The position numbers and the translations under genes are program-made. From Candidatus Doudnabacteria bacterium (GTDB lineage Bacteria; Patescibacteriota; Doudnabacteria; UBA920; O2-02-FULL-48-8), in assembly GCA_016182875.1 (NCBI GenBank), contig JACPFQ010000001.1:85680-149679 (forward strand): 64,000 nt of DNA, read 5' to 3'. Of this stretch, positions 34,031 through 61,733 are shown piece after piece. Every line of letters begins with the position of its first letter. Positions within the stretch are counted from its first letter, which is position 1. The notes under the pieces are model-generated. The model saw only the letters and a program-made list of their open reading frames with translations, did no database searches and was not told the DNA's origin.

Positions 34031-34120
34031 CCCCTCTCCTATCAGGAGAGGGGACGAGGGTGAGGTGGCTTGAGATGCTTTAGCCACCCCACCCTTAGTC
34101 CCTCCCCTGGAAGGGGAGGG
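34031..34120. repeat. Composite GC-rich hairpin element (three adjacent hairpins); the same modules flank the DUF559 gene at 1234-1271 and 1624-1646
   Basis: CCCCTCTCC-TATCA-GGAGAGGGG; GGGTGAGGTGGC..GCCACCCCACCC; CCCTCCCC-TGGAA-GGGGAGGG. Confidence 0.7.
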
Positions 34121-34761: not shown

Positions 34762-34866
34762 CAAAAATCAAAGAGCAAAAATCAAAATGTAATTAAAAAT
34801 GCAAAAAGAATAATTTTTAATTTTGCTTTATCATTTTGCATTTTGACTTTTGAATTTTAAATTCTC
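34762..34866. repeat. ~105-bp AT-rich palindromic intergenic repeat, copy A (family also at 45413-45522 inverted and 61623-61733)
   Basis: CAAAAATCAAAG(A/C)(G/T)CAAAAATCAAAATGTAATTAAAAATGCAAA...TTTGCATTTTGACTTTTGAATT. Lies between convergent genes. Confidence 0.7.
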
Positions 34867-45412: not shown

Positions 45413-45522
45413 AGAATTCAAAATGCAAAAGTCAAAATGCAAAATGACAAAGCAAAATTAAAAATTATTCTCTTTGCATTTTTAATTACATTTTGATTTT
45501 TGAGCTTTGATTTTTGCATTTA
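45413..45522. repeat. ~110-bp AT-rich palindromic repeat, copy B (inverted orientation)
   Basis: Reverse complement matches copies A and C nearly base for base. Confidence 0.7.
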
Positions 45523-47123: not shown

Positions 47124-48009
47124 AATCGGCTTGAAGCATTAAATTTACCAGCACCAGTTTGGCGTTCAGGTTTTGCCTGACCAGACTTTGGCTTTCGCCA
47201 AGCAGAGCTATCCGGTCTGCTAGTTTTTTATGCGGGTTCTTTCTAAGCTCCGACTCCAGCCGGTTTTGCCACAGGTCGAGGGTCAATAATAACTCCGCTG
47301 TTTCGCTTTCAGAAAGTTGGTTCACCAAAAGCAGCCTTTTTGACTTGTCTTCGGACAAAAAATCATCAAGCTGTTTTTCTGTGTTGGCAAGCATTGACAA
47401 GAATTCCTCGTCCATGGCTATCTTGAGGGCTAGGCCCGGCTTCTGGGATGCAAAATTTTGGATTAAAGCTTTCTGCGCCGTTGAAAGTTTCAGCGGCAGA
47501 AGGTATTTGTACCCATCATAATCAACCACGCCGAAATTTATTTTTTGGGCGCGGGAGAGGATGGTTTTTTTAAGCCGGTCCGGCGAAGAGGTAATAAGGA
47601 TGACTATCGTATAAGGCTTCGGCTCTTCGATGCTTTTCAGAAGGGCGTTCTGCGCCTCCTCGGTCATATTTTCGGCGGCATCAATCACGGCAACCTTATA
47701 CTGGGCCAAATAAGGCTTCAGCGAGAGCTTGTAAATCAAATCCCTTATCTGCTCAATCTTTATGGCTTCGCTGCCGCCCAGCTCAATGAAGTCGGCGTTA
47801 TTTTTCAAGACAAAGCTTTTGCATTGCTTGCAGGAATTGCAGGCCTGGTTGTTTTCGCAAATCAAAATCTGGGCAAGCTTATGGGCGACCATCCGTTTGC
47901 CAACTCCTTGAGGGCCGGCGAAGACATAAGCATGGGCCAGCCGCCCCCGTTTGATTGTCTGCTCCAAAAACTCCAGCTGTTTTTTGTGTCCCGCAACTTG
48001 CCAATCCAT
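47116..48009 (-). CDS. holB: DNA polymerase III delta-prime subunit
   Basis: Degenerate P-loop 'GPQGVGKRMVA', zinc module 'CNSCKQCKSF', and an AAA+ clamp-loader fold. Confidence 0.8.
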   Translation of the reverse strand: MDWQVAGHKKQLEFLEQTIKRGRLAHAYVFAGPQGVGKRMVAHKLAQILICENNQACNSCKQCKSFVLKNNADFIELGGSEAIKIEQIRDLIYKLSLKPYLAQYKVAVIDAAENMTEEAQNALLKSIEEPKPYTIVILITSSPDRLKKTILSRAQKINFGVVDYDGYKYLLPLKLSTAQKALIQNFASQKPGLALKIAMDEEFLSMLANTEKQLDDFLSEDKSKRLLLVNQLSESETAELLLTLDLWQNRLESELRKNPHKKLADRIALLGESQSLVRQNLNAKLVLVNLMLQADYA

Positions 48010-48634
48010 GGCCTAATTCTAGCATTTTTGCCCTCTAAACAAAAACAGCAACCGTTCTGGCCAATTCTGCACTCTTAGTGCGAAGTTTTGGCCCAAGGCC
48101 GCTGATTTTTGTTTGTTACAAAGCTTTGTTAGGCTTAACCTCAAATATTTTTGCAAAAGCAAAATTTTGAGTCAATGTTGTTATGTGGAAAATCTGTTGA
48201 GATTTTTTGTGTACAAAAAATTCACCGCTAGGGTGAATCTTTTGATTAAAGATCGGTGTGGTACCGGTTCTGTTAACTGAGTCCTTACGAACTTTCGCTA
48301 ACCGGGGAAAAGGTCCAAGAGGTTACCCTTACTTGTTTGACACCGAAGGCATTTCTCCTTCAGCGTACCTTCTCAGAAACCAGTATCTCTTGATCAGTCG
48401 ATCCCGCTTTTCAGCGGAACCTGCTTCGCAAGAGTTGCCCCTTACGAAGACCATGGTATAGCTATTCTAGATTAGGTAAAATTTGAGGTCAAATTATTTT
48501 AAAGCAACAAAAAACAGCCGGTTTTAAAGGCTTTTTTGTGAGGTGTGAATAAATTGTTCTTAAAGAGTGGAAAATCTGTAGAATTGACAAAAATTTACTA
48601 AAAAAGGATAATTAATATATCAATGGATAGGGCC

Positions 48635-48663
48635 TTGACTTTGAGACTAAATAGGCTTATAAT
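48635..48663 (+). promoter_or_regulatory. Consensus sigma70 promoter TTGACT, 17-nt spacer, TATAAT inside the gene desert
   Basis: -35 at 48635-48640, 17-nt spacer, -10 at 48658-48663. Confidence 0.45.
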
Positions 48664-49503
48664 TTAGAGCCAATGAATAAAAACAAGACAAAAGGATATA
48701 ATAGATTTAGATAATCTGATAATATCTTTTTGCCTGTTTTTTTCTTACGATACTTGTAGATTTGTTGCTAAAGCCAGCGGTTGTAAGAGAGTTTAATACT
48801 TAGATAACAGTTGTAGTTTTATAACTGTTTAGAGCTAAAAAGTTCTAGATGTATTACTTACGTCTAGGCTTTTTAGTATGTGGAGGGAACCGGAACCACT
48901 TCCCTTTGGCGATGATTAACCGGCCGTTCCGGTAAACTGCATTGCAGTACCAGAAACCATCATCACCAAGGAAGCACTGTTGGTGAACTGTTGAGGGTTG
49001 TTGTGTCTGTTCTGTCATAAAGGCGGCTTTCCTGTGTTGGCTTGCTCTCTTACAACCACCTACAACCGCTAGTTCTAGAAACAAATTCTTATTTTGAAGG
49101 TACAAATAAAATCGCCTCACGAGCCAGCACTCTGGGGTTTAACTTTCGTTAATCCCCAAGATTTGAGCGCCTGGGGGAATTTGATTTTCCCCAGAGCACT
49201 AGCTCTTAAAGCGATTTTGCCCTAGTGAGTATCGGACTTGCTGGCTTCTCCGGGCGCTCAACTCGGAGAAAGTTGTAGATTTTTAAAGTGCTTATATCTT
49301 AAAGGATTTTATTTAGGCTGTCAAACGCGGCCTTTTCCTATCCTCACTTATTATAGCAATACCGGTTTACAAAGTCCATATTATGTCTTGAGGGGAGAGG
49401 TGTTAACTGTTGAGACTGCATACGCGAAGCATTATTCGCATTCGCGAGCGAGGAGCTGGTGTACTTTGAGGAGAGCGTGGCGATCTACTTTCTAGCCCGT
49501 TAA

Positions 49504-49580
49504 TTCATCGATGCTGATAAATCAGCAGGCTACACTCGGGTTAGATTGCTTCGTCGCTACACTCCTCGCAAATGCGCAGA
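49504..49580. repeat. Two small palindromic repeat elements overlapping the 3' end of mreB-2: GCTGATAAATCAGC (also at 12299) and TTAGATTGCTTCGTCGC..CTCCTCGCAAATGCG (also at 52925-52965)
   Basis: Shared 35-40-nt segments at both loci. Confidence 0.5.
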
Positions 49581-49591
49581 CAGACAGTTTC

Positions 49592-50599
49592 TTACCTTGC
49601 CGCCAGGATGCTGCGCTTATAGCTTTCCAAGTTCTCCAGGGCGACGCCGGTGCCTTGGGCTACGCAAAGAATCGCGTCATCCGCCACATAGGCAGGCACC
49701 CCAGTGGACTGGCCGATTAGCTTGTCCACATTCCTAAGCAGGGCGGTGCCACCGGTCATAATCATGCCCTTGTCTATAATATCGGCTGCCAGCTCCGGCG
49801 GCGTTTCCTGCAATACCGAGCGCACCGCCTTGATTATTTCGCGGAGCTCCTCCTGAATCGCCTCAACTACTTCGTTCGTGGAAATCTGGACTGTTTTGGG
49901 CAGCCCTTGAATCAAATCGCGGCCGCGAATCTCAATCACCCCTTCCTTTTCGACGGGCAAGGCCGAACCGATTTTAATTTTAATTTCTTCCGCGGTGCGG
50001 TCTCCTATGGCCAAACCGTATTTTCGCCGGACGTATTCGGCAATCGCGGCATCCAGCTTATTGCCGGCTACCCGCACCGAAGTCTGGGTCACTATTCCTC
50101 CCAAAGACAGCACAGCCACGTCTGTGGTGCCCCCGCCGATATCAATAATCATATTGCCGGAGGGGTGAGCAATATCAATGCCGGCGCCGATTGCCGCGGC
50201 TACCGTTTCCTTGATGACGTAGGCGGCTTTGGCGCCAGCAGCGGTAGCGGCATCCACGACGGCGCGCCTTTCCGTGGAGGTAATGCCTCCAGGCACCGAA
50301 ATCATGACCTCTGGCCGGAAAAATCGGATATTGCCCGCGGCTTTGTTGATGAAGTACCTAAGCATGGCTTCGGTCACGCGGTAATCGGCAATCACGCCGT
50401 CCTTCATGGGCCGGTGCGCGACAATCGTATCAGGAGTGCGGCCAAGCATCTCCTTGGCTTCCGATCCTACGGCCAAAACCTGGTTGTCGACAATGGAAAT
50501 AGCCACCACAGTCGGTTCATTTATGATAATGCCTTTGTTCGGCACGAAAACCAAAGTGTTGGCTGTGCCCAGGTCTATGCCTATTCTCTTTAAAAACAT
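49592..50599 (-). CDS. MreB/Mbl-family actin homolog (second paralog)
   Basis: '[14 protein letters not shown]', '[18 protein letters not shown]'. Confidence 0.9.
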
Positions 50600-50733: not shown

Positions 50734-51999
50734 TTAATCAATTCTTTTAATCTCAGCGCCCAACTTTTGCAATCTCTGCTCTATCTTCTCGTATCCTCTG
50801 TCAATATGTTCGATGCCATCGATCTCCGACTGGCCCTCGGCAACCAAGCCGGCAAGCACCAAAGTCATACCCATCCGAATATCATAACTGACAAGCTTGG
50901 CCCCGTAAAGCCTGGCTGGGCCGGTTATTTTGACCCGGTGAGGGTCAAGGATTTGGGCTTTGGCCCCCATTTTATTCAATTCAGAAGCATATCCCAAACG
51001 GTTTTCATACATCCATTCATAGATTACGGTTTCTCCTGCCGCTTGGGTTGCCAATACAGCCAGCGCCGGAGTGTCGTCGCTTGCAAGCTTTGGATAAAGC
51101 CCGACCTGCAATTTATTTACGGCGCGGTAGGCGGCTTTGGGCGGATGGACGCGGACAAAATCTTTGCCAACCTCAAAATTTACGCCGAACTGCTTCATTT
51201 TCAGCAGAAAGTCATCAAGAAACCCGGGATCAAGATGAGTAATTTTAATATCCCCTTTGACGGCGGCGGCAAGGGTGATGAATGTCGCGGCTTGATTGGA
51301 GTCGGGAATTACTTCGGCCTGTCCGCCCTTCAAGCTGGAAACGCCTTGGATAACCAGTGTTGGACTGCCTTTCCCTGAGATTTTGGCGCCCATGCCGTTC
51401 AAAAAGTCGATCAACTGCCCAACGTGCGGCTCCATGGCCGCAAGCTTAATCGTAGTAATGCCGTTTGCCAGCGCCGATGCCATCAGCAAATTTTCCGTGG
51501 CTGTCACAGACGTTTCTTCCATTACTATAGTTGCGCCCGAAAGCCCGTTGGGCGCGGAAAAACTGTAGCCGCCGTCTGTCTCAACCTTGGCCCCTAGGCT
51601 TACGAAACCTGCAATATGCGGCTCAATCGTCCGAACCCCTATTTTGTCCCCGCCGCTGGTTTTTAAATCAGCTTGCTTCATTCGAATAAGCAAGGGCCCG
51701 GCCAATAAAATCGACGCCCGTAATTTGGATGTCAGCTCCGGATTTGGAGCGGATCGGTTCAGTTCTTTCGGGTCGATAACCAGCTTCCCGGCTGAGCGGT
51801 CGTAATCCACTTTTGCTCCCAAACCGGTAATCAGCTTAATCATCACTTCCACATCCTCAATGAGTGGGACATTGGTCAAAACACTTTTTTCTTTCGATAA
51901 AAGACTGGCCACCATTAAAGCCAGAACCGAGTTCTTGGAGCCGGAAACCGGAATTTCACCGCTTAACTTTTTGCCGCCGTTTATGATAAACCTAGCCAT
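50734..51999 (-). CDS. murA: UDP-N-acetylglucosamine 1-carboxyvinyltransferase
   Basis: 'ARFIINGGKKLSGEIPVSGSKNS', EPSP-synthase fold, 421 aa. Confidence 0.93.
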   Translation of the reverse strand: MARFIINGGKKLSGEIPVSGSKNSVLALMVASLLSKEKSVLTNVPLIEDVEVMIKLITGLGAKVDYDRSAGKLVIDPKELNRSAPNPELTSKLRASILLAGPLLIRMKQADLKTSGGDKIGVRTIEPHIAGFVSLGAKVETDGGYSFSAPNGLSGATIVMEETSVTATENLLMASALANGITTIKLAAMEPHVGQLIDFLNGMGAKISGKGSPTLVIQGVSSLKGGQAEVIPDSNQAATFITLAAAVKGDIKITHLDPGFLDDFLLKMKQFGVNFEVGKDFVRVHPPKAAYRAVNKLQVGLYPKLASDDTPALAVLATQAAGETVIYEWMYENRLGYASELNKMGAKAQILDPHRVKITGPARLYGAKLVSYDIRMGMTLVLAGLVAEGQSEIDGIEHIDRGYEKIEQRLQKLGAEIKRID

Positions 52000-53387: not shown

Positions 53388-53925
53388 TAATTTTAAGATT
53401 AGTGATGAATTCTAATAATTCTGAAACATGTATGAAAGACTTAAATGTCCAGGATTCATCTTTGCTTGCATCTAATTTTTTAAGTAGTTCCAAAGCAACC
53501 CATTTTACCTCGTCCATTTCTTCTTTTTCAAAGCTTAGGCTGTCGACGTCTCCGTCCCAAAAAAATATATAAACATAAATGAACTCTTTGTTTTTATCTT
53601 CATAATAGTGCTTAACCACTTTCCATAGCTTTAAGTCCGGCTCCTCGGCTCTAAGGCCCAATTCTTCGTGCAATTCCATAATCGCTCCTTGGACTGGACT
53701 AATTCCCACAAGAATATGCCCGCCAAAAAAGGCTTCCCACAGGCCGGGGTTATGATCTTTCGAAACCGACCGCTTATTGCACAAGACCTCGTTTTTAGAA
53801 TTCAAGACCCAAACATGGGCGTTGCGATGCCAGACGCCTTCGCTGTGGGCGCGATGCCGCTCCACCGGCTCAATCGGCTGGTTATTTTCATCAACCGCAA
53901 ACAGCAATTCGTTCTTATTTATCAT
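53380..53925 (-). CDS. NUDIX hydrolase (IDI/Nudix-like)
   Basis: Nudix-box-like 'GGHILVGISPVQGAIMELHEELGL'. Confidence 0.6.
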   Translation of the reverse strand: MINKNELLFAVDENNQPIEPVERHRAHSEGVWHRNAHVWVLNSKNEVLCNKRSVSKDHNPGLWEAFFGGHILVGISPVQGAIMELHEELGLRAEEPDLKLWKVVKHYYEDKNKEFIYVYIFFWDGDVDSLSFEKEEMDEVKWVALELLKKLDASKDESWTFKSFIHVSELLEFITNLKINA

Positions 53926-55581
53926 GCTTTCTTAAGTCAATAATTTTTAATTCCAAGCTTTTGCTGCCGTTCCAGGAATTTTCTTCCAGTTCATAGACCG
54001 CATCTATTTTCGTTCCGGGTGGCAGCTTCTCAGACAAAAAACCCTGGCCAAAGGCAATGGCGCCAAAAAATTTATTTCCCATCTTGAGTCTTAGTTTAAG
54101 GTGCTTGTTGCCGTTGCCTACACTCCGCGCTTCCGTGATTTCCATACCGTAGGAAACAAATTTTGGCTTGGGATTCCCCACGCCAAATGGAGCGATGCGC
54201 TGGATATATTCAAAATTATCGAAATTTATATCAGACTCATTAAGCTCCAAATCGACCTCAAGCACAGGCGGCTCAAACTCCATGCTTAGCGTCTCAACAT
54301 AGTCCAAAAGCTTCTGATGAAAGCTCGAAAGATGCTCTGAGGGCAAGGTAAAGCCTGCCGCTTGCATATGCCCTCCATACCGAACCAGTAGTTCCTTGCT
54401 TGAGTTAAGGGCCGCGACCAGGTCAAAATTGCCCACTGACCGGCCAGAACCGGTGGCCAACAGCTCTTCTTTGCGCAAAATCAGGACCGGACGGCCGTAT
54501 TCTTCGGCGAGTCGGCCCGCAACAAGTCCGACCACGCCTTTGGGCCAGTCAGCGCCATACGCCAGCAGAACCTTTTTATCAGAGGCCAGTTCGAGTTGAG
54601 ACCGGGCTTCGCTCAAAACCTGCTCCGTCAACTTTTGGCGGTGCTGGTTTAAATCATTAAGCTCCAAAGCCAAATTTTTGGCTTCAGCTTCATCCTCGGT
54701 AACCAAAAGCTTGAAAGCCAAATCCGCGTGTTTGATTCGGCCGGCGGCATTGATGCGGGGAGCCAAAATAAATCCCAAGGCGTAAGTATCGAGGGCTTTG
54801 CCCTCAAGGCCGGCCAGGGTCATCAATTTTTTCAGGCCAAGCCAGCGCGTCTTGGCCAAAACCTTAAGGCCGAAGCTTACCAAGATTCTGTTTTCACCTA
54901 CGAGATTTTGGCAATCAGCAACTGTGCCAATGGCTAGTAAATCCAAACGCCATTTCTCCCAGCCATTTGGAAATTGGAAATTAGATTAAAGGCCACTCCC
55001 ACTCCAGTCAAAAACGGAAACGAGTAATTGTCATGCGGATTTTTGGGATTGATGACCGCAAGCGCCTCTGGAAGCTCTCCAGTCACCTCGTGATGGTCAG
55101 TCACGATCACGTCCATCCCAAGCTCTTTTGCCAAAGCGACTTCTTCCACGGCATTAGTGCCGCAGTCAACGGTAATCACAAGCTGTCCGCCTCTTTCAGC
55201 GATTAGTTTGATTGCGTCAGCGTTAACGCCGTAGCCTTCGGAAAACCGGTCAGGAATGTAGTAATCAACCACTGCCCCCAGCTTCTTAAGAGCCAAATAA
55301 ACCACTGCCGCGGCAGTGATGGCGTCCGCGTCATAATCCGCGTAAATAAAAATTTTTTCTTTCCGCTCTAAGGCCTGCAAAATCCGCTCAACTGCCATCA
55401 GCATGTCGGCAAACAAAAAAGGATCGTGCAGTTTGCCGAAGTCCGGATTTAAAAAATCGCGTATCGCTTCGGGCTCAGTAAACCCCCGCAACGCTAAAAG
55501 CCTGATAACCAACGGAGGGTATTCCGGCAAAACTTCGGGATTTTTTATTTCCAGGGTTTTAACCCGCCACTGTTTGGACAT
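53915..55581 (-). pseudogene. recJ: Single-stranded-DNA exonuclease RecJ, split by a frameshift into a DHH ORF (54934-55581) and a DHHA1-OB ORF (53915-54946)
   Basis: N-part 'IYADYDADAITAAAV', 'VITVDCG', 'VIVTDHH'. C-part 'LDLLAIGTVADCQNL', 'GGHMQAAGF'. Frames overlap at a (GGAAATT)2 heptamer repeat at 54969-54982, next to a T3/A3 run. Confidence 0.85.
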
Positions 55582-55582
55582 T

Positions 55583-56056
55583 TTACCTAAAAATCTTATT
55601 CGCCCAGGTTAGAAATTCTGCAAGGTTGAAGACAAGTATGCGTTTTTCAGGTGAATCTTGCTCAATATACTTTCTAGTGGCCACGGCGTTTCTCAGCCAT
55701 TGTATGGCTCCTTTTTTGAATCCCGGACCGTCGATAACAATAATCATGTCGTCCTCGGGCACTTGCAAGGCGTTTAGATACAGATAGGCCAGTTTTTCAT
55801 CAACTGAACCTGACCTTTGTTGCCATTTACATTCTATGCGTACCGAAAGCTTATATTTTTTTGATTTCAACAAATATTCAGTATAACCGCCATGTTCATA
55901 AATTGTTCTATACGGCACATGCATTAAAAGCAATTCTGAACCATATTTCTTAGAATTTTTTGCCCAGTCTCTATAAGCAACAACAGTAAAACCCTTGCTT
56001 TCAAGAGTGCCTCGAACTGTTTGCTCAAGAGTTGACCCGCTGGATGTTGTTGTCAT
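55583..56056 (-). CDS. Putative small restriction endonuclease (PD-(D/E)xK-like), partner of the Dam-like methyltransferase
   Basis: 157 aa, 'TEYLL...VRIECKWQQ' is a candidate (D/E)-x-K. Immediately downstream of the MTase in the same orientation (gap 14 nt). Confidence 0.35.
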   Translation of the reverse strand: MTTTSSGSTLEQTVRGTLESKGFTVVAYRDWAKNSKKYGSELLLMHVPYRTIYEHGGYTEYLLKSKKYKLSVRIECKWQQRSGSVDEKLAYLYLNALQVPEDDMIIVIDGPGFKKGAIQWLRNAVATRKYIEQDSPEKRILVFNLAEFLTWANKIFR

Positions 56057-56070
56057 ACGCCGCCTAAATA

Positions 56071-56928
56071 CTAATAATTAGTTATAATTACTTCCTTGAC
56101 TTTACCTCTGCCTTCGCTCTTACAGTTTATCGCTCGGTTTGCATCAACTTCTTTAATTAACTTAGCATATTTGGCATAAAGTCGAAATATCAAAGGCGTG
56201 TGGGAATTTGATACCATAAAATAAACCCCTTTTTCGCTCAACCTGTCGCATAGATCTCTTAGATCAACTTGCATTTTCAAATCGAAATCGTCTTTAAAAT
56301 ATTTTGTGAAAGATGTTCTGTTCAAAGGTATGTAGGGGGGATCAAAATAAATGAAGTCTCCTTTTCTGGCATCCTTTTCGACATCTAAGAAAGACTGGCA
56401 CTTAATTACAATATTGCGTAGCGCCTCATTGGAAGCTCTTAAATTATGTTCATCTATAATATTTGGATTTTGATAGTTGCCGTAAGGAACATTAAAATAA
56501 CCCTTAGAATTGACTCGATAGAGTCCATTGTAGCAAGTTTTGTTTAAATAAATAAATCTTGCAGCTTTTTGCACATTATTCCATTTATTATAGTCCAAAT
56601 TTCTATCAGCATTTCGAATTTTATAAAAATCTTGCTCGGTATTCTTTAGTTTCTTTAGTTCAATAATTAGATCATCAACCTGATCTTTAATAATTTGATA
56701 TACGTTCATCAACTCTGGGTTTATATCAGAGATTGTGCTGAGCTTTGGCTGCAATCTGAAAAACAAAGCCCCGCCCCCAACAAAGGGCTCAAAGTACCTA
56801 TTAAACCATTTGGGAGCATATCTTACCAATTCATCTAAAAGCTGGCGTTTGCCGCCTGCCCACTTCACAAAAGGCTGTACTTTTATTTTAGCGTCTATTT
56901 TCAATGCGAGTTGTTTAATATTATACAC
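56071..56928 (-). CDS. Dam-family N6-adenine DNA methyltransferase
   Basis: 'VKWAGGKRQLL', 'EPFVGGGALFF', and the catalytic 'DPPY'. Confidence 0.85.
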   Translation of the reverse strand: MYNIKQLALKIDAKIKVQPFVKWAGGKRQLLDELVRYAPKWFNRYFEPFVGGGALFFRLQPKLSTISDINPELMNVYQIIKDQVDDLIIELKKLKNTEQDFYKIRNADRNLDYNKWNNVQKAARFIYLNKTCYNGLYRVNSKGYFNVPYGNYQNPNIIDEHNLRASNEALRNIVIKCQSFLDVEKDARKGDFIYFDPPYIPLNRTSFTKYFKDDFDLKMQVDLRDLCDRLSEKGVYFMVSNSHTPLIFRLYAKYAKLIKEVDANRAINCKSEGRGKVKEVIITNY

Positions 56929-57049: not shown

Positions 57050-57487
57050 TCAAATCGTGGTCACGCCCGGCCGATCGTCTTCGTCGGGCTTTACTGAGAG
57101 CGGCCCGTGCGGCTTATCGTCCAGCAGTTCTTTGACTTTAGCCAGGATGTCGTTGGGGCCGTCATAACCTTTGACCATGAAATAAGTTTCCATAAGCTTC
57201 CCGGCTTTCTCCCTGTCCTCGTCGCGTCCTAAGTGGGAAAAAATAATCACCGGCGTTAATGCAGTGGCCGGATTGTTCTTCAGATTTTTTATTAGTTCAA
57301 ATCCATCCATGCGCGGCATGTCAATGCCAGTAAACACCAGGTCAGGACGGTCTGCTGGAGAAATTTTCTGCCAAGCATCCAGGCCGTCAGCAGCGGGTAT
57401 GACCTCAAAGCCGTTACTTCGAAACAGCTCAACGTAAAGGTCTCTTTGTTCTAAATCGTCATCGACGACAAGTATTTTTTTCATCAA
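57050..57487 (-). CDS. Single-domain response regulator (CheY-like receiver)
   Basis: 'ILVVDDD...', phospho-acceptor context 'VFTGIDMPRMDGFELI'. 4-nt overlap with gpmI. Confidence 0.8.
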   Translation of the reverse strand: MMKKILVVDDDLEQRDLYVELFRSNGFEVIPAADGLDAWQKISPADRPDLVFTGIDMPRMDGFELIKNLKNNPATALTPVIIFSHLGRDEDREKAGKLMETYFMVKGYDGPNDILAKVKELLDDKPHGPLSVKPDEDDRPGVTTI

Positions 57488-59070
57488 ATTTGTTTAACCA
57501 ATTGAGGAAGCAGGCTTATGCCTGTCATTTCTTTGGGATTTGGAATTCCCATTAATTCTAGCATGCTTGGAGAGACGTCCGAAAGCACGCCAACAGGGAC
57601 GACACCGGCCAAGGACAGCACACCTCCTTCTTTGGGCGTTTTGCGCTTAAATTGATTCGCCACCAAAATAAACGGGACAGGGTTGGTCGAGTGCTCTTTG
57701 TCTATTCCGCCTGACCGGATGTCCAGCAGCTCCTCAATGTTGCCGTGATCCGCGGTTATGAGAAGGCAAATATCCTCCGCCAAACAAGCATCCGATATTT
57801 TTTTTAGACATTCGTCGATGACTTTGACGGCCAAGATAGACGCCGAGATGTTGCCGGTGTGACCGACCATGTCGGGGTTGGCATAAAAACTGTAGTTGGC
57901 CCGCAGCTGCGAAATAAGCGTATCAGTGACCTTGCGCGCGGACATCTCTGGCACGTCCTGATAATTCTGGTAATTGGAAATCGGCGACGTGACAATCTCG
58001 CGCTCTTCACCAGGGAAAGGATGAATGACGCCGCCATTGAAAAACACCGAGACGTGGGCGTATTTCTCCGATTCAGCTACGTGAAACTGCCGCAAACCCT
58101 GCTTGCTTATCAGCTCGGCAAAGCCATTGTTAATTTCCTGCGGTGGAAACGCAACCTTAACGTTCAAGTCGCGGGAGTATTCGGTCATGGTCACGAACAG
58201 TAAATTTTTAATTTGTTTAATGGGAAATTTGTTGAATCCGGTTTCGGTAAAAGCCCTTGTAATCTGCAAAGCTCGGTCAGGCCGGAAATTAAAATGAATA
58301 ATCGCGTCATTGTCGGAAATCACGGCAGGGGTGTCCGAATTTTTGGCAATTACGGTCGGAGGAATCATTTCGTCAAAAATATGATGAGCATAATTGTCCG
58401 CGACTGCCTGCTGGGCCGATGCCGCTTTCCTGCCTTCGCCAAAAACCATGGCCTTATAAGCTGCCTCGGTCAGATTCCAATGTTCAGCCCGGTCCATGCC
58501 ATAGAATCTGCCGCTGATGGTGGCAATCTTGCCTAAATTGAGATTGACCAGTCTTTTCGCCAGCTTTTCCAGGGTATCCAGCGCGATTTGCGGCGGCGTG
58601 TCGCGTCCGTCGGTAAACATGTGAATATAAACGTTTTTAAGCTTATGCTCGGCCATAAGCCCAAGCAAGGCATAAAGATGCTCATCATAGCTATGCACGC
58701 CGCCCGGACTGACCAATCCCATGAAGTGCAGGTTGGAACTATACTTTTTTGCATGCGCTGCAGCCGCGAGAAATGCTTCGTTCCTAAAAAAACTGCGGTC
58801 CTCGATCGCCAGAGTAATCCGGGAAAGGTCCTGGCCGACAATTCTTCCCGCACCCAGGTTCAAATGGCCCACTTCCGAATTCCCCATTTCGCCCCAGGGC
58901 AAGCCCACGGCCGGACCCGAGGCTTGAAGGGTGGTTGCCGGAAAGTTGTCGATTAGATAATTGATTGTTGCGGGTGCGGCCAGAGTCACCGCGTTGCCGT
59001 GGGAAGCAGTGGCAATGCCAAAACCATCGAGGACCACCAGAAGCAATTTTTTATATGGAGTAAATTGCAT
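57484..59070 (-). CDS. gpmI: 2,3-bisphosphoglycerate-independent phosphoglycerate mutase
   Basis: 'LLLVVLDGFGI', metal-site 'TADHGN', 528 aa. Confidence 0.92.
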   Translation of the reverse strand: MQFTPYKKLLLVVLDGFGIATASHGNAVTLAAPATINYLIDNFPATTLQASGPAVGLPWGEMGNSEVGHLNLGAGRIVGQDLSRITLAIEDRSFFRNEAFLAAAAHAKKYSSNLHFMGLVSPGGVHSYDEHLYALLGLMAEHKLKNVYIHMFTDGRDTPPQIALDTLEKLAKRLVNLNLGKIATISGRFYGMDRAEHWNLTEAAYKAMVFGEGRKAASAQQAVADNYAHHIFDEMIPPTVIAKNSDTPAVISDNDAIIHFNFRPDRALQITRAFTETGFNKFPIKQIKNLLFVTMTEYSRDLNVKVAFPPQEINNGFAELISKQGLRQFHVAESEKYAHVSVFFNGGVIHPFPGEEREIVTSPISNYQNYQDVPEMSARKVTDTLISQLRANYSFYANPDMVGHTGNISASILAVKVIDECLKKISDACLAEDICLLITADHGNIEELLDIRSGGIDKEHSTNPVPFILVANQFKRKTPKEGGVLSLAGVVPVGVLSDVSPSMLELMGIPNPKEMTGISLLPQLVKQI

Positions 59071-59134: not shown

Positions 59135-59146
59135 CGCGATTTATTA

Positions 59147-61622: not shown

Positions 61623-61733
61623 GCAAAAATCAAAGCTCAAAAATCAAAATGTAATTAAAAATGCAAAGAGAATAAAGATACTTTTTTAATTTTACTCTGT
61701 CATTTTGCATTTTGACTTTTGACTTTTGAATTC
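61623..61733. repeat. ~110-bp AT-rich palindromic repeat, copy C, between gap and pgk
   Basis: Near-identical to 34762-34866. Confidence 0.7.

What the first reader, a model, noticed from the sequence alone, without database searches (positions are those of the whole stretch)
53915..55581. recJ split by a frameshift located at a (GGAAATT)2 heptanucleotide repeat
The DHH half (54934-55581) and the DHHA1-OB half (53915-54946) of RecJ lie in different frames that overlap for 13 nt. The switch point lies in 'ccatttggaaattggaaattag' (54963-54984), which contains two tandem GGAAATT units next to a TTT run. Three heptamer copies would restore one continuous RecJ ORF (..NLISNFQFPNGWEKWRLDLLAIGTVAD..), and so would one extra A/T in the homopolymer. 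The cause is slipped-strand variation of a short SSR (an ON/OFF switch), a genuine inactivating mutation, or a homopolymer sequencing error.
Basis: seen in the sequence. Interest (0 to 1): 0.5.

Follow-up and report, generated by a model that had tools for sequence, protein, structure and literature searches.

The report
recJ split is private to this assembly
The broken recJ DNA-repair gene in this groundwater bacterium genome is missing 34 bases that are present, giving an intact gene, in independent assemblies of the same population from six sequencing runs, so the split is most likely a local assembly defect or a rare variant and not a genetic on/off switch.

Summary
On the minus strand recJ is read as two ORFs (55581..54934 and 54946..53915) in different frames, with (GGAAATT)2 at 54969-54982. 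The interpretation mostly fails. The window is a Candidatus Doudnabacteria MAG. Independent Logan assemblies of raw sequencing runs hold the same population: 23 contigs, identical over 28,954 bp apart from five sites private to the window and one SNP in a single run. They show an intact 566-aa recJ. Relative to them the window lacks 34 nt between 54985 and 54986. Twenty of these lie outside the repeat, and the deletion ends share no microhomology. The window also carries two substitutions 37 and 48 nt away, each replacing a residue conserved in 117 of 118 relatives. The true array is AATTTCC-AATTTCT-AATTTCC-AATTTCC, and the window keeps its tail. The cause is therefore neither loss of one heptamer nor a 1-nt homopolymer error, and the gene is not a fixed pseudogene. 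Most likely (about 0.55) it is a local assembly or scaffolding error at a site where every assembly breaks. A real minority deletion allele comes second (about 0.3). Read mapping would decide. Interest is low.

The parts
54934..55581 (-). recJ N-terminal fragment (215 aa: DHH motifs I-III through GVGVAF). The last ~17 codons are out-of-frame read-through ending at TAG 54936..54934.
   Evidence: ORF list; Pfam DHH 99 bits covering profile positions 1-103 of 125; deposited as MBI2355740.1 'DHH family phosphoesterase', known only from the NCBI MAG.
53915..54985 (-). recJ C-terminal part in the second frame (rest of DHH including GWEKW..AIGTVAD, then DHHA1 and the RecJ OB domain). The mechanical ORF starts at TTG 54946, but homologous coding sequence runs up to the deletion junction at 54985.
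   Evidence: deposited as MBI2355739.1 'hypothetical protein HYV13_00850', NCBI MAG only.
54985..54986 (-). Deletion junction. Minus-strand sequence GCTGGTCCAGGCCCTTTTTTCCAAATTTCCAATT (34 nt) is present here in the six upstream Logan contigs (six sequencing runs) that read through this point, and its 3' end heads all three downstream contigs that begin inside the array. It is absent from the window. Its loss shifts the frame and removes the codons for KLVQALFSKFP(I).
   Evidence: Zero microhomology on either side. With the 34 nt restored the ORF is 566 aa and scores 568.2 bits on TIGR00644.
54969..54985 (-). In the intact allele the array is AATTTCC-AATTTCT-AATTTCC-AATTTCC and encodes part of the loop KFPISNFQFPN.
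54948..54948 (-). Private substitution: window G where the other assemblies have T (minus strand). CGT Arg replaces CTT Leu at a position that is Leu in 117 of 118 relatives.
54937..54937 (-). Private substitution: window C where the other assemblies have G (minus strand). CTA Leu replaces GTA Val at a position that is Val in 117 of 118 relatives.

Best explanation
The organism's recJ is an ordinary intact single gene of 566 aa (DHH, DHHA1 and OB domains; the 5'-3' single-strand DNA exonuclease). The split exists only in this deposited MAG consensus. It comes from a 34-nt gap at 54985|54986, at the edge of a short imperfect heptamer array that encodes a variable surface loop, together with two substitutions 37 and 48 nt downstream. 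I consider it most likely a local assembly or scaffolding defect. The source study assembled Illumina reads with MEGAHIT and then joined contigs with the IDBA-UD scaffolder, and this is a spot where every independent de Bruijn assembly of the population breaks. A contig join at such a spot, with a variant-carrying contig end, would give a deletion without homology plus clustered mismatches. Shown: the intact allele in six runs, the nature of the lesion, its privacy to the MAG, and the contig breaks in the array. Inferred: that the lesion arose during assembly and not in cells.
For: (1) The exact proteins of the flanking genes occur on Logan contigs from runs SRR12113384, 385, 419, 420, 422, 424, 430 and 431, while both recJ halves are known only from the NCBI MAG. 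(2) Twenty-three Logan contigs cover 28,954 bp of the window. The only fixed differences are the 34-nt deletion, SNPs at 54937 and 54948, a 12-nt deletion at 57883 and a SNP at 50949. The chance that 2 of 3 SNPs lie within +-50 nt of the deletion is about 4e-5. (4) Six of six upstream and three of three downstream contigs end inside the array. Same-run pairs overlap by exactly k-1 = 30 nt, so this is an assembly-fragile site. (5) Both MAG-private deletions (34 nt, 12 nt) have zero microhomology, which argues against replication slippage, and both remove family-conserved residues. (6) The other MAG-private alleles (iPGM lacking LANF, MurA L351) also appear in no Logan assembly, whereas MurA F351 is on 7 Logan contigs. 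(7) Methods of the probable source study: MEGAHIT followed by the IDBA-UD scaffolding function (PMC7906910). Chen et al. [quoted passage not shown]
Against: No reads were available, so lack of read support for the window's junction is not shown. De Bruijn assemblers cannot invent k-mers, so if the junction arose in MEGAHIT and not in the scaffolder it must exist in at least 2 reads, which would mean a real (possibly rare) molecule. The MurA L351F difference is neutral to the family models and looks like a true strain SNP, so the MAG may represent a slightly different strain from a sample not among the runs recovered. The 12-nt deletion lies where Logan contigs do not break. I could not identify which MAG or sample the window comes from. 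The link to PRJNA640378 is inferred from accession series, taxon and run numbers. How the IDBA-UD scaffolder joins overlapping contigs is recalled from memory and not verified.
Confidence: 0.55

Rival explanations
1. Real loss-of-function allele. A sub-population or closely related strain, from which the MAG consensus was drawn, carries a genuine 34-nt deletion in recJ, produced by one complex mutational event that also made the two nearby substitutions. In those cells recJ is a very recent pseudogene.
For: The MAG has a neutral private SNP in MurA that looks like true strain variation. De Bruijn assembly needs read support for the junction k-mers. Very recent lineages often carry unpurged damaging changes (general knowledge). 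The study sampled the Ag site on several dates, so strain turnover is possible.
Against: None of the independent assemblies shows any of the MAG-private alleles. Upstream Logan contigs run through the point ...GCCTTTAA|G without a branch in six runs. The strain would carry three changes at invariant RecJ positions plus a 4-residue deletion in the iPGM NFANPDMVGHTG motif while being otherwise identical over 29 kb. The lesion coincides with an assembly break site.
Confidence: 0.3
2. One reading: the heptamer array is a slipped-strand contingency tract that switches recJ ON and OFF by gain or loss of units.
For: The intact allele holds four tandem heptamer units. All Logan assemblies break inside the array at slightly different positions (CCA / CCAA / CCAAA / ..TAATT), as if several minor length variants coexist. 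The lesion abuts the array. Repeat-mediated switching of repair genes is documented for mutL in Salmonella (PMC2955026).
Against: The ON/OFF difference actually observed is 34 nt, not a multiple of 7, and 20 nt of it lie outside the array with no microhomology. The tract is short and imperfect (4 units with 1 mismatch; 2 in the window). The loop sequence is not conserved in relatives. Logan contigs also break systematically at hairpins and AT-rich sites that are not repeat tracts. No assembled allele with a different unit number was found.
Confidence: 0.05
3. Functional recoding or a split protein: a programmed -1 ribosomal frameshift, or two polypeptides that assemble, yields active RecJ from the window's sequence.
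For: N-frame to C-frame needs a -1 shift. A GGAG lies 9 nt upstream of the TTG at 54946 (read from the sequence).
Against: There is no X XXY YYZ slippery heptamer in the N-frame within the shift zone (read directly). All 119 listed relatives and the same population encode one ORF. Any product would still lack invariant K199 and Q202, and the split falls inside the DHH fold before the motif-IV Asp. The GGAG is a by-product of the conserved W-E-K codons.
Confidence: 0.02
4. Single-base homopolymer sequencing error in the TTT/AAA run.
For: One extra A/T restores an ORF.
Against: Comparison with independent assemblies shows a 34-nt difference, not 1 nt. The data are Illumina, and the run is only 3 nt long.
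Confidence: 0.01

Closest known systems
Bacterial RecJ, single-stranded-DNA-specific 5'-3' exonuclease (NCBIfam TIGR00644; Pfam DHH + DHHA1 + RecJ_OB)
   Same: The population allele matches the equivalog model end to end (568 bits, cutoff 397) with all three domains and the family-invariant residues around the junction.
   Different: The window's copy lacks 34 nt and is read as two ORFs. Nothing else about the gene is unusual.
Local assembly or scaffolding errors in metagenome-assembled genomes (Chen et al. 2020, Genome Res, PMC7111523)
   Same: A consensus stretch not reproduced by independent assemblies, in a CPR genome, at a local repeat inside a protein-coding gene, from a pipeline using IDBA-UD scaffolding. 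That paper reports 13 such errors in one 1.13-Mb CPR genome, one of them in a repeat-containing gene.
   Different: The defining criterion, that no read perfectly supports the consensus, could not be tested here.
Repeat-mediated allele conversion of mismatch-repair genes (6-bp tandem repeats in Salmonella mutL; Chen et al. 2010, PMC2955026)
   Different: In mutL the alleles differ by exactly one repeat unit through slipped-strand mispairing. Here the alleles differ by 34 nt that extend outside the array without homology, and reversibility is not plausible.
Classical contingency loci with long heptanucleotide tracts, e.g. the 7-bp repeats upstream of Haemophilus influenzae hmw genes (recalled from memory, not checked)
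   Same: The unit length is 7 nt.
   Different: Those tracts have many perfect units and vary in unit number among cells. This one has 2-4 units, is imperfect, and no unit-number variant was observed.

Membership tests
RecJ (TIGR00644 equivalog) | Full-length match above the curated cutoff with DHH, DHHA1 and RecJ_OB domains in one polypeptide | tested here: met
   Met for the population allele (568.2 bits against 396.9). For the window sequence as it stands the domains are split over two ORFs.
RecJ (TIGR00644 equivalog) | Family-invariant residues flanking the junction (K199, Q202, W222, L223, D225, V227, G230) | tested here: met
   All are present in the Logan allele. The window lacks K199 and Q202 and has R223 and L227.
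Slipped-strand phase-variable (contingency) locus | ON and OFF alleles differ by whole repeat units | tested here: not met
   The difference is 34 nt plus 2 SNPs, not a multiple of 7, and 20 nt lie outside the array.
Slipped-strand phase-variable (contingency) locus | A long, perfect repeat tract able to slip at high rate | tested here: not met
   Two perfect units in the window and four units with one mismatch in the intact allele.
Slipped-strand phase-variable (contingency) locus | Repeat-number heterogeneity among reads or strains | not testable with these tools
   No reads were available. The indirect sign is that all Logan contigs break within the array at slightly different positions. 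This is inconclusive, because breaks also occur at hairpins and AT-rich sites.
Programmed -1 ribosomal frameshift | X XXY YYZ slippery site in the upstream frame, and the frameshift conserved in relatives | tested here: not met
   No such heptamer exists in the shift zone. All 119 listed relatives and the same population have one ORF.
Fixed pseudogene | Lesion shared by the population or relatives, with further decay | tested here: not met
   The gene is intact in six runs of the same population and in all relatives. Apart from the junction cluster, the rest of the gene matches the intact allele.
Local assembly error of a MAG | Not reproduced by independent assemblies of the same population | tested here: met
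   No Logan assembly carries any of the MAG-private alleles.
Local assembly error of a MAG | Consensus lacks perfect support by any read | not testable with these tools
   This needs read mapping of the source run.

The most novel reading that the evidence does not exclude
The loop-encoding heptamer array of recJ is a genuine hypervariable site in an otherwise almost clonal CPR population. Several length alleles, including frameshifting ones and the 34-nt deletion, would coexist in every sample, so that RecJ activity is heterogeneous among cells, acting as a contingency-like modulation of recombination and repair in an episymbiont. This would explain why no assembly from any run spans the array.
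Probability: 0.06. Interest if true: 0.5.

Novelty: not a real feature. Interest (0 to 1): 0.08.

Why it matters
The main value is as a caution and a correction. The public records MBI2355739.1 ('hypothetical protein') and MBI2355740.1 ('DHH family phosphoesterase') are two pieces of one ordinary RecJ. The organism should not be scored as recJ-deficient, and the repeat should not be listed as a phase-variation locus. The same applies to the iPGM record MBI2355744.1, which lacks four conserved residues. The case also shows a cheap way to vet a frameshift in a MAG: compare it with independent assemblies of the same sequencing runs. If the minority reading (real heterogeneity at the array) were true, it would be a modestly interesting example of repair-gene variation in CPR bacteria.

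Tried and rejected
(1) The search for related loci in genome contigs with the repaired protein was swamped by the generic pattern MDVIVTDH. The best identity was 45%, so it gave nothing on close strains. (2) Two metagenome-contig scans found nothing: a junction pattern with a variable gap, and a degenerate pattern encoding WEKWxLDLxAIGTVADCQNLVGEN. (3) Exact look-ups of the two recJ halves found no contig on record. The lead came from the neighbouring genes instead. (4) A protein search with only the 121 junction residues found no fragment spanning the junction in either allele; the best hit was 77% identical. (5) Other overlapping same-strand ORF pairs were tested as possible split genes. Enolase and PGK are distinct genes and the others had no shared family, so there is no sign of widespread frameshifts. 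(6) Programmed -1 frameshifting was rejected: no slippery site and no conservation. A +1 shift has the wrong direction, and the homopolymers are too short for transcriptional slippage. (7) A zero-copy repair (-14 nt) also restores the frame but deletes the helix, so it was rejected. (8) Quasi-palindrome or template-switch origin of the two SNPs was checked by eye: the window allele is less palindromic than the intact one. (9) I tried to identify the source MAG and sample from the study's supplementary tables. SRR numbers are not in the held files, and five Ag-site Doudnabacteria MAGs have 46-48% GC. (10) The look-up of the response-regulator neighbour failed because the called start differs. 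(11) An Rfam scan of the ORF-free stretch 47900-49700 gave no family.

Full report
OBSERVATION. The gene lies on the minus strand. ORF 55581..54934 (215 aa) carries the first 103 of 125 positions of the Pfam DHH domain. ORF 54946..53915 (343 aa) carries DHHA1 and the RecJ OB domain. The two overlap by 13 nt in different frames. GGAAATT occurs twice in tandem at 54969-54982. Inserting 7 nt or 1 nt gives a single ORF that scores as RecJ (TIGR00644 547.8 bits, cutoff 396.9). A two-copy heptamer is not remarkable here, however: the window has 15 such loci against about 4.6 expected.

WHERE THE FRAME CHANGES. The window comes from a Candidatus Doudnabacteria MAG. The C half is MBI2355739.1 (HYV13_00850, 'hypothetical protein') and the N half is MBI2355740.1. 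All 119 listed relatives are single-ORF RecJ proteins of 487-599 aa, most of them 550-600 aa, and the closest is only 74% identical. In their alignment GVGVAF is read in the N-frame and the near-invariant GWEKW.LDL.A.GTVAD in the C-frame. The lesion must therefore lie in the ~15 nt between them, in a loop whose length varies among relatives.

THE DECISIVE COMPARISON. The two recJ halves are known only from the NCBI MAG. The exact proteins of both flanking genes, in contrast, also occur on Logan contigs, which are independent k=31 assemblies of individual SRA runs. Fetching those contigs showed two things. Six upstream contigs from six runs all end inside a heptamer array within recJ, and three downstream contigs all begin inside it. 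In same-run pairs they overlap by exactly k-1 = 30 nt (SRR12113384 and SRR12113424; 29 nt in SRR12113385). Merged, they give an intact 566-aa recJ reading ...GVGVAFKLVQALFSKFPISNFQFPNGWEKWLLDLVAIGTVAD....

Relative to this allele the window lacks the 34 nt GCTGGTCCAGGCCCTTTTTTCCAAATTTCCAATT between 54985 and 54986. It also differs at 54948 (Arg for Leu) and 54937 (Leu for Val). The true array is AATTTCC-AATTTCT-AATTTCC-AATTTCC. The window keeps only 'TCT' plus the last two units. Twenty of the missing bases lie outside the array, 34 is not a multiple of 7, and the deletion ends share no microhomology.

WHICH ALLELE IS ANCESTRAL. It restores K199 (118 of 118 relatives) and Q202 (117 of 118). 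The 'NLISNF' that I first aligned with the family's KLVQAL helix is really the ISNF of the loop, brought next to AF by the deletion.

HOW PRIVATE THE WINDOW'S ALLELE IS. Twenty-three Logan contigs from about ten runs cover 28,954 bp of the window. Apart from one SNP seen in a single run, the only differences are five sites where the window stands alone:
- the 34-nt deletion in recJ;
- the two adjacent SNPs at 54937 and 54948;
- a 12-nt in-frame deletion at 57883, which removes LANF from the FYLANFANPDMVGHTG motif of phosphoglycerate mutase (TIGR01307 579.6 bits against 592.5 with the 12 nt; also zero microhomology);
- a SNP at 50949 (MurA L351 against F351), which is neutral to the family models.

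The window-type iPGM and MurA proteins are known only from the NCBI MAG, while MurA F351 is on 7 Logan contigs and was confirmed in runs 384, 385, 420, 424 and 430. The chance that two of three SNPs fall within 50 nt of the deletion is about 4e-5, so the junction cluster is one event.

MECHANISM. Shown: the population encodes an intact, ordinary RecJ, and the split is caused by a private 34-nt deletion with two linked substitutions. Inferred: its origin.

I favour a local assembly or scaffolding defect (about 0.55). The probable source study (He et al. 2021, PMC7906910) assembled Illumina reads per filter with MEGAHIT and then scaffolded contigs with the IDBA-UD scaffolding function. [quoted passage not shown] The lesion sits exactly where every independent assembly breaks. 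Homology-free deletions with mismatches clustered at one side are what a mis-measured contig join with a variant-bearing contig end would give.

The main rival (about 0.3) is a real deletion allele in a minority or sample-specific strain. De Bruijn assemblers need read support for their k-mers, and the neutral MurA SNP looks like genuine strain variation. Against it, the strain would combine three hits on invariant RecJ positions with a damaged iPGM motif while being otherwise identical over 29 kb, and no independent assembly shows any of its alleles.

THE SWITCH IDEA AND OTHER RIVALS. A slipped-strand ON/OFF switch (about 0.05) fails the tests that could be run: the alleles do not differ by whole units, the tract is short and imperfect, and the loop is not conserved in relatives. 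The one observation in its favour remains unexplained. No assembly from any run spans the array, and the break point differs slightly among runs (ends at ..CCA..CCAA..CCAAA..TAATT), as if minor length variants were present. Logan contigs from several runs also break at hairpins (near 34113 and 59136) and at an AT-rich site (45491), so this is weak evidence. Programmed -1 frameshifting or a functional split protein (about 0.02) lacks a slippery site and conservation, and its product would still lack invariant residues. A 1-nt homopolymer error (about 0.01) is excluded by the 34-nt difference.

CAVEATS. No single contig spans the array, so the intact allele rests on a 30-nt overlap. Its reading frame, loop length and invariant residues make a simple junction very likely, but extra in-frame 21-nt units cannot be excluded. 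The source MAG and sample could not be identified, and the link to PRJNA640378 is inferred. The window has no N gaps.

COMPARISON AND VERDICT. The gene is a member of the RecJ equivalog family. The lesion resembles documented MAG local assembly errors. It does not meet the tested criteria of a contingency locus such as the mutL 6-bp repeat switch of Salmonella (PMC2955026). The finding is an artefact or a trivial private variant, and interest is low. Read mapping would settle the question.

Noticed in passing
window 57883 (gene 57484..59070, minus strand): The 2,3-bisphosphoglycerate-independent phosphoglycerate mutase in the window lacks 12 nt (CTGGCCAACTTC, residues LANF of FYLANFANPDMVGHTG) that are present in four independent Logan contigs. 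The deletion has zero microhomology, and the family score drops from 592.5 to 579.6 bits. It is a second MAG-private deletion in a conserved motif (deposited as MBI2355744.1).
   Followed up: partly
window 50949 (murA, 50734..51999, minus strand): A private nonsynonymous SNP: L351 in the window against F351 in Logan contigs from five runs, and the F351 protein is recorded on 7 Logan contigs in all. It is neutral to TIGR01072, so it may be a true strain marker.
   Followed up: yes
window 55583..56928 (minus strand): Directly upstream of recJ lie a Dam-family N6-adenine methyltransferase (56071..56928, TIGR00571 305 bits) and a 157-aa PDDEXK_11 nuclease-fold protein (55583..56056). They are probably a type II restriction-modification pair. 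The nuclease-fold protein is deposited under the apparently wrong name '4-diphosphocytidyl-2C-methyl-D-erythritol kinase'.
   Followed up: partly
window 2819, 34832, 45433, 61701, 61710 and others: Two-copy heptamer tandem repeats are about 3-fold over-represented (15 loci against 4.6 expected). TCAAAAT occurs x3.8 at 2819 and TTTTGAC x2.9 at 61710. CATTTTGCATTTTG recurs at 34832 and 61701, with its reverse complement at 45433. At least some of these (e.g. 61701/61710, between two ORFs) lie outside coding sequence and might be a regulatory motif.
   Followed up: no
window ~34113, ~45491, ~59136: Logan contigs from several runs end at the same places: GC-rich hairpins (tccctcccc..ggggaggga near 34113; two stem-loops near 59136) and an AT-rich stretch at 45491. 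These could be genome-wide repeated elements or sites of sequencing difficulty.
   Followed up: no
window ~48080..49590: About 1.5 kb has no ORF of 90 aa or more and no called gene in the Logan loci, and no Rfam family matches at gathering threshold.
   Followed up: partly
window 33302: A single-run SNP (contig L100, SRR12113422) against the window and two other runs. It is the only within-population polymorphism seen among the Logan contigs in 29 kb.
   Followed up: no
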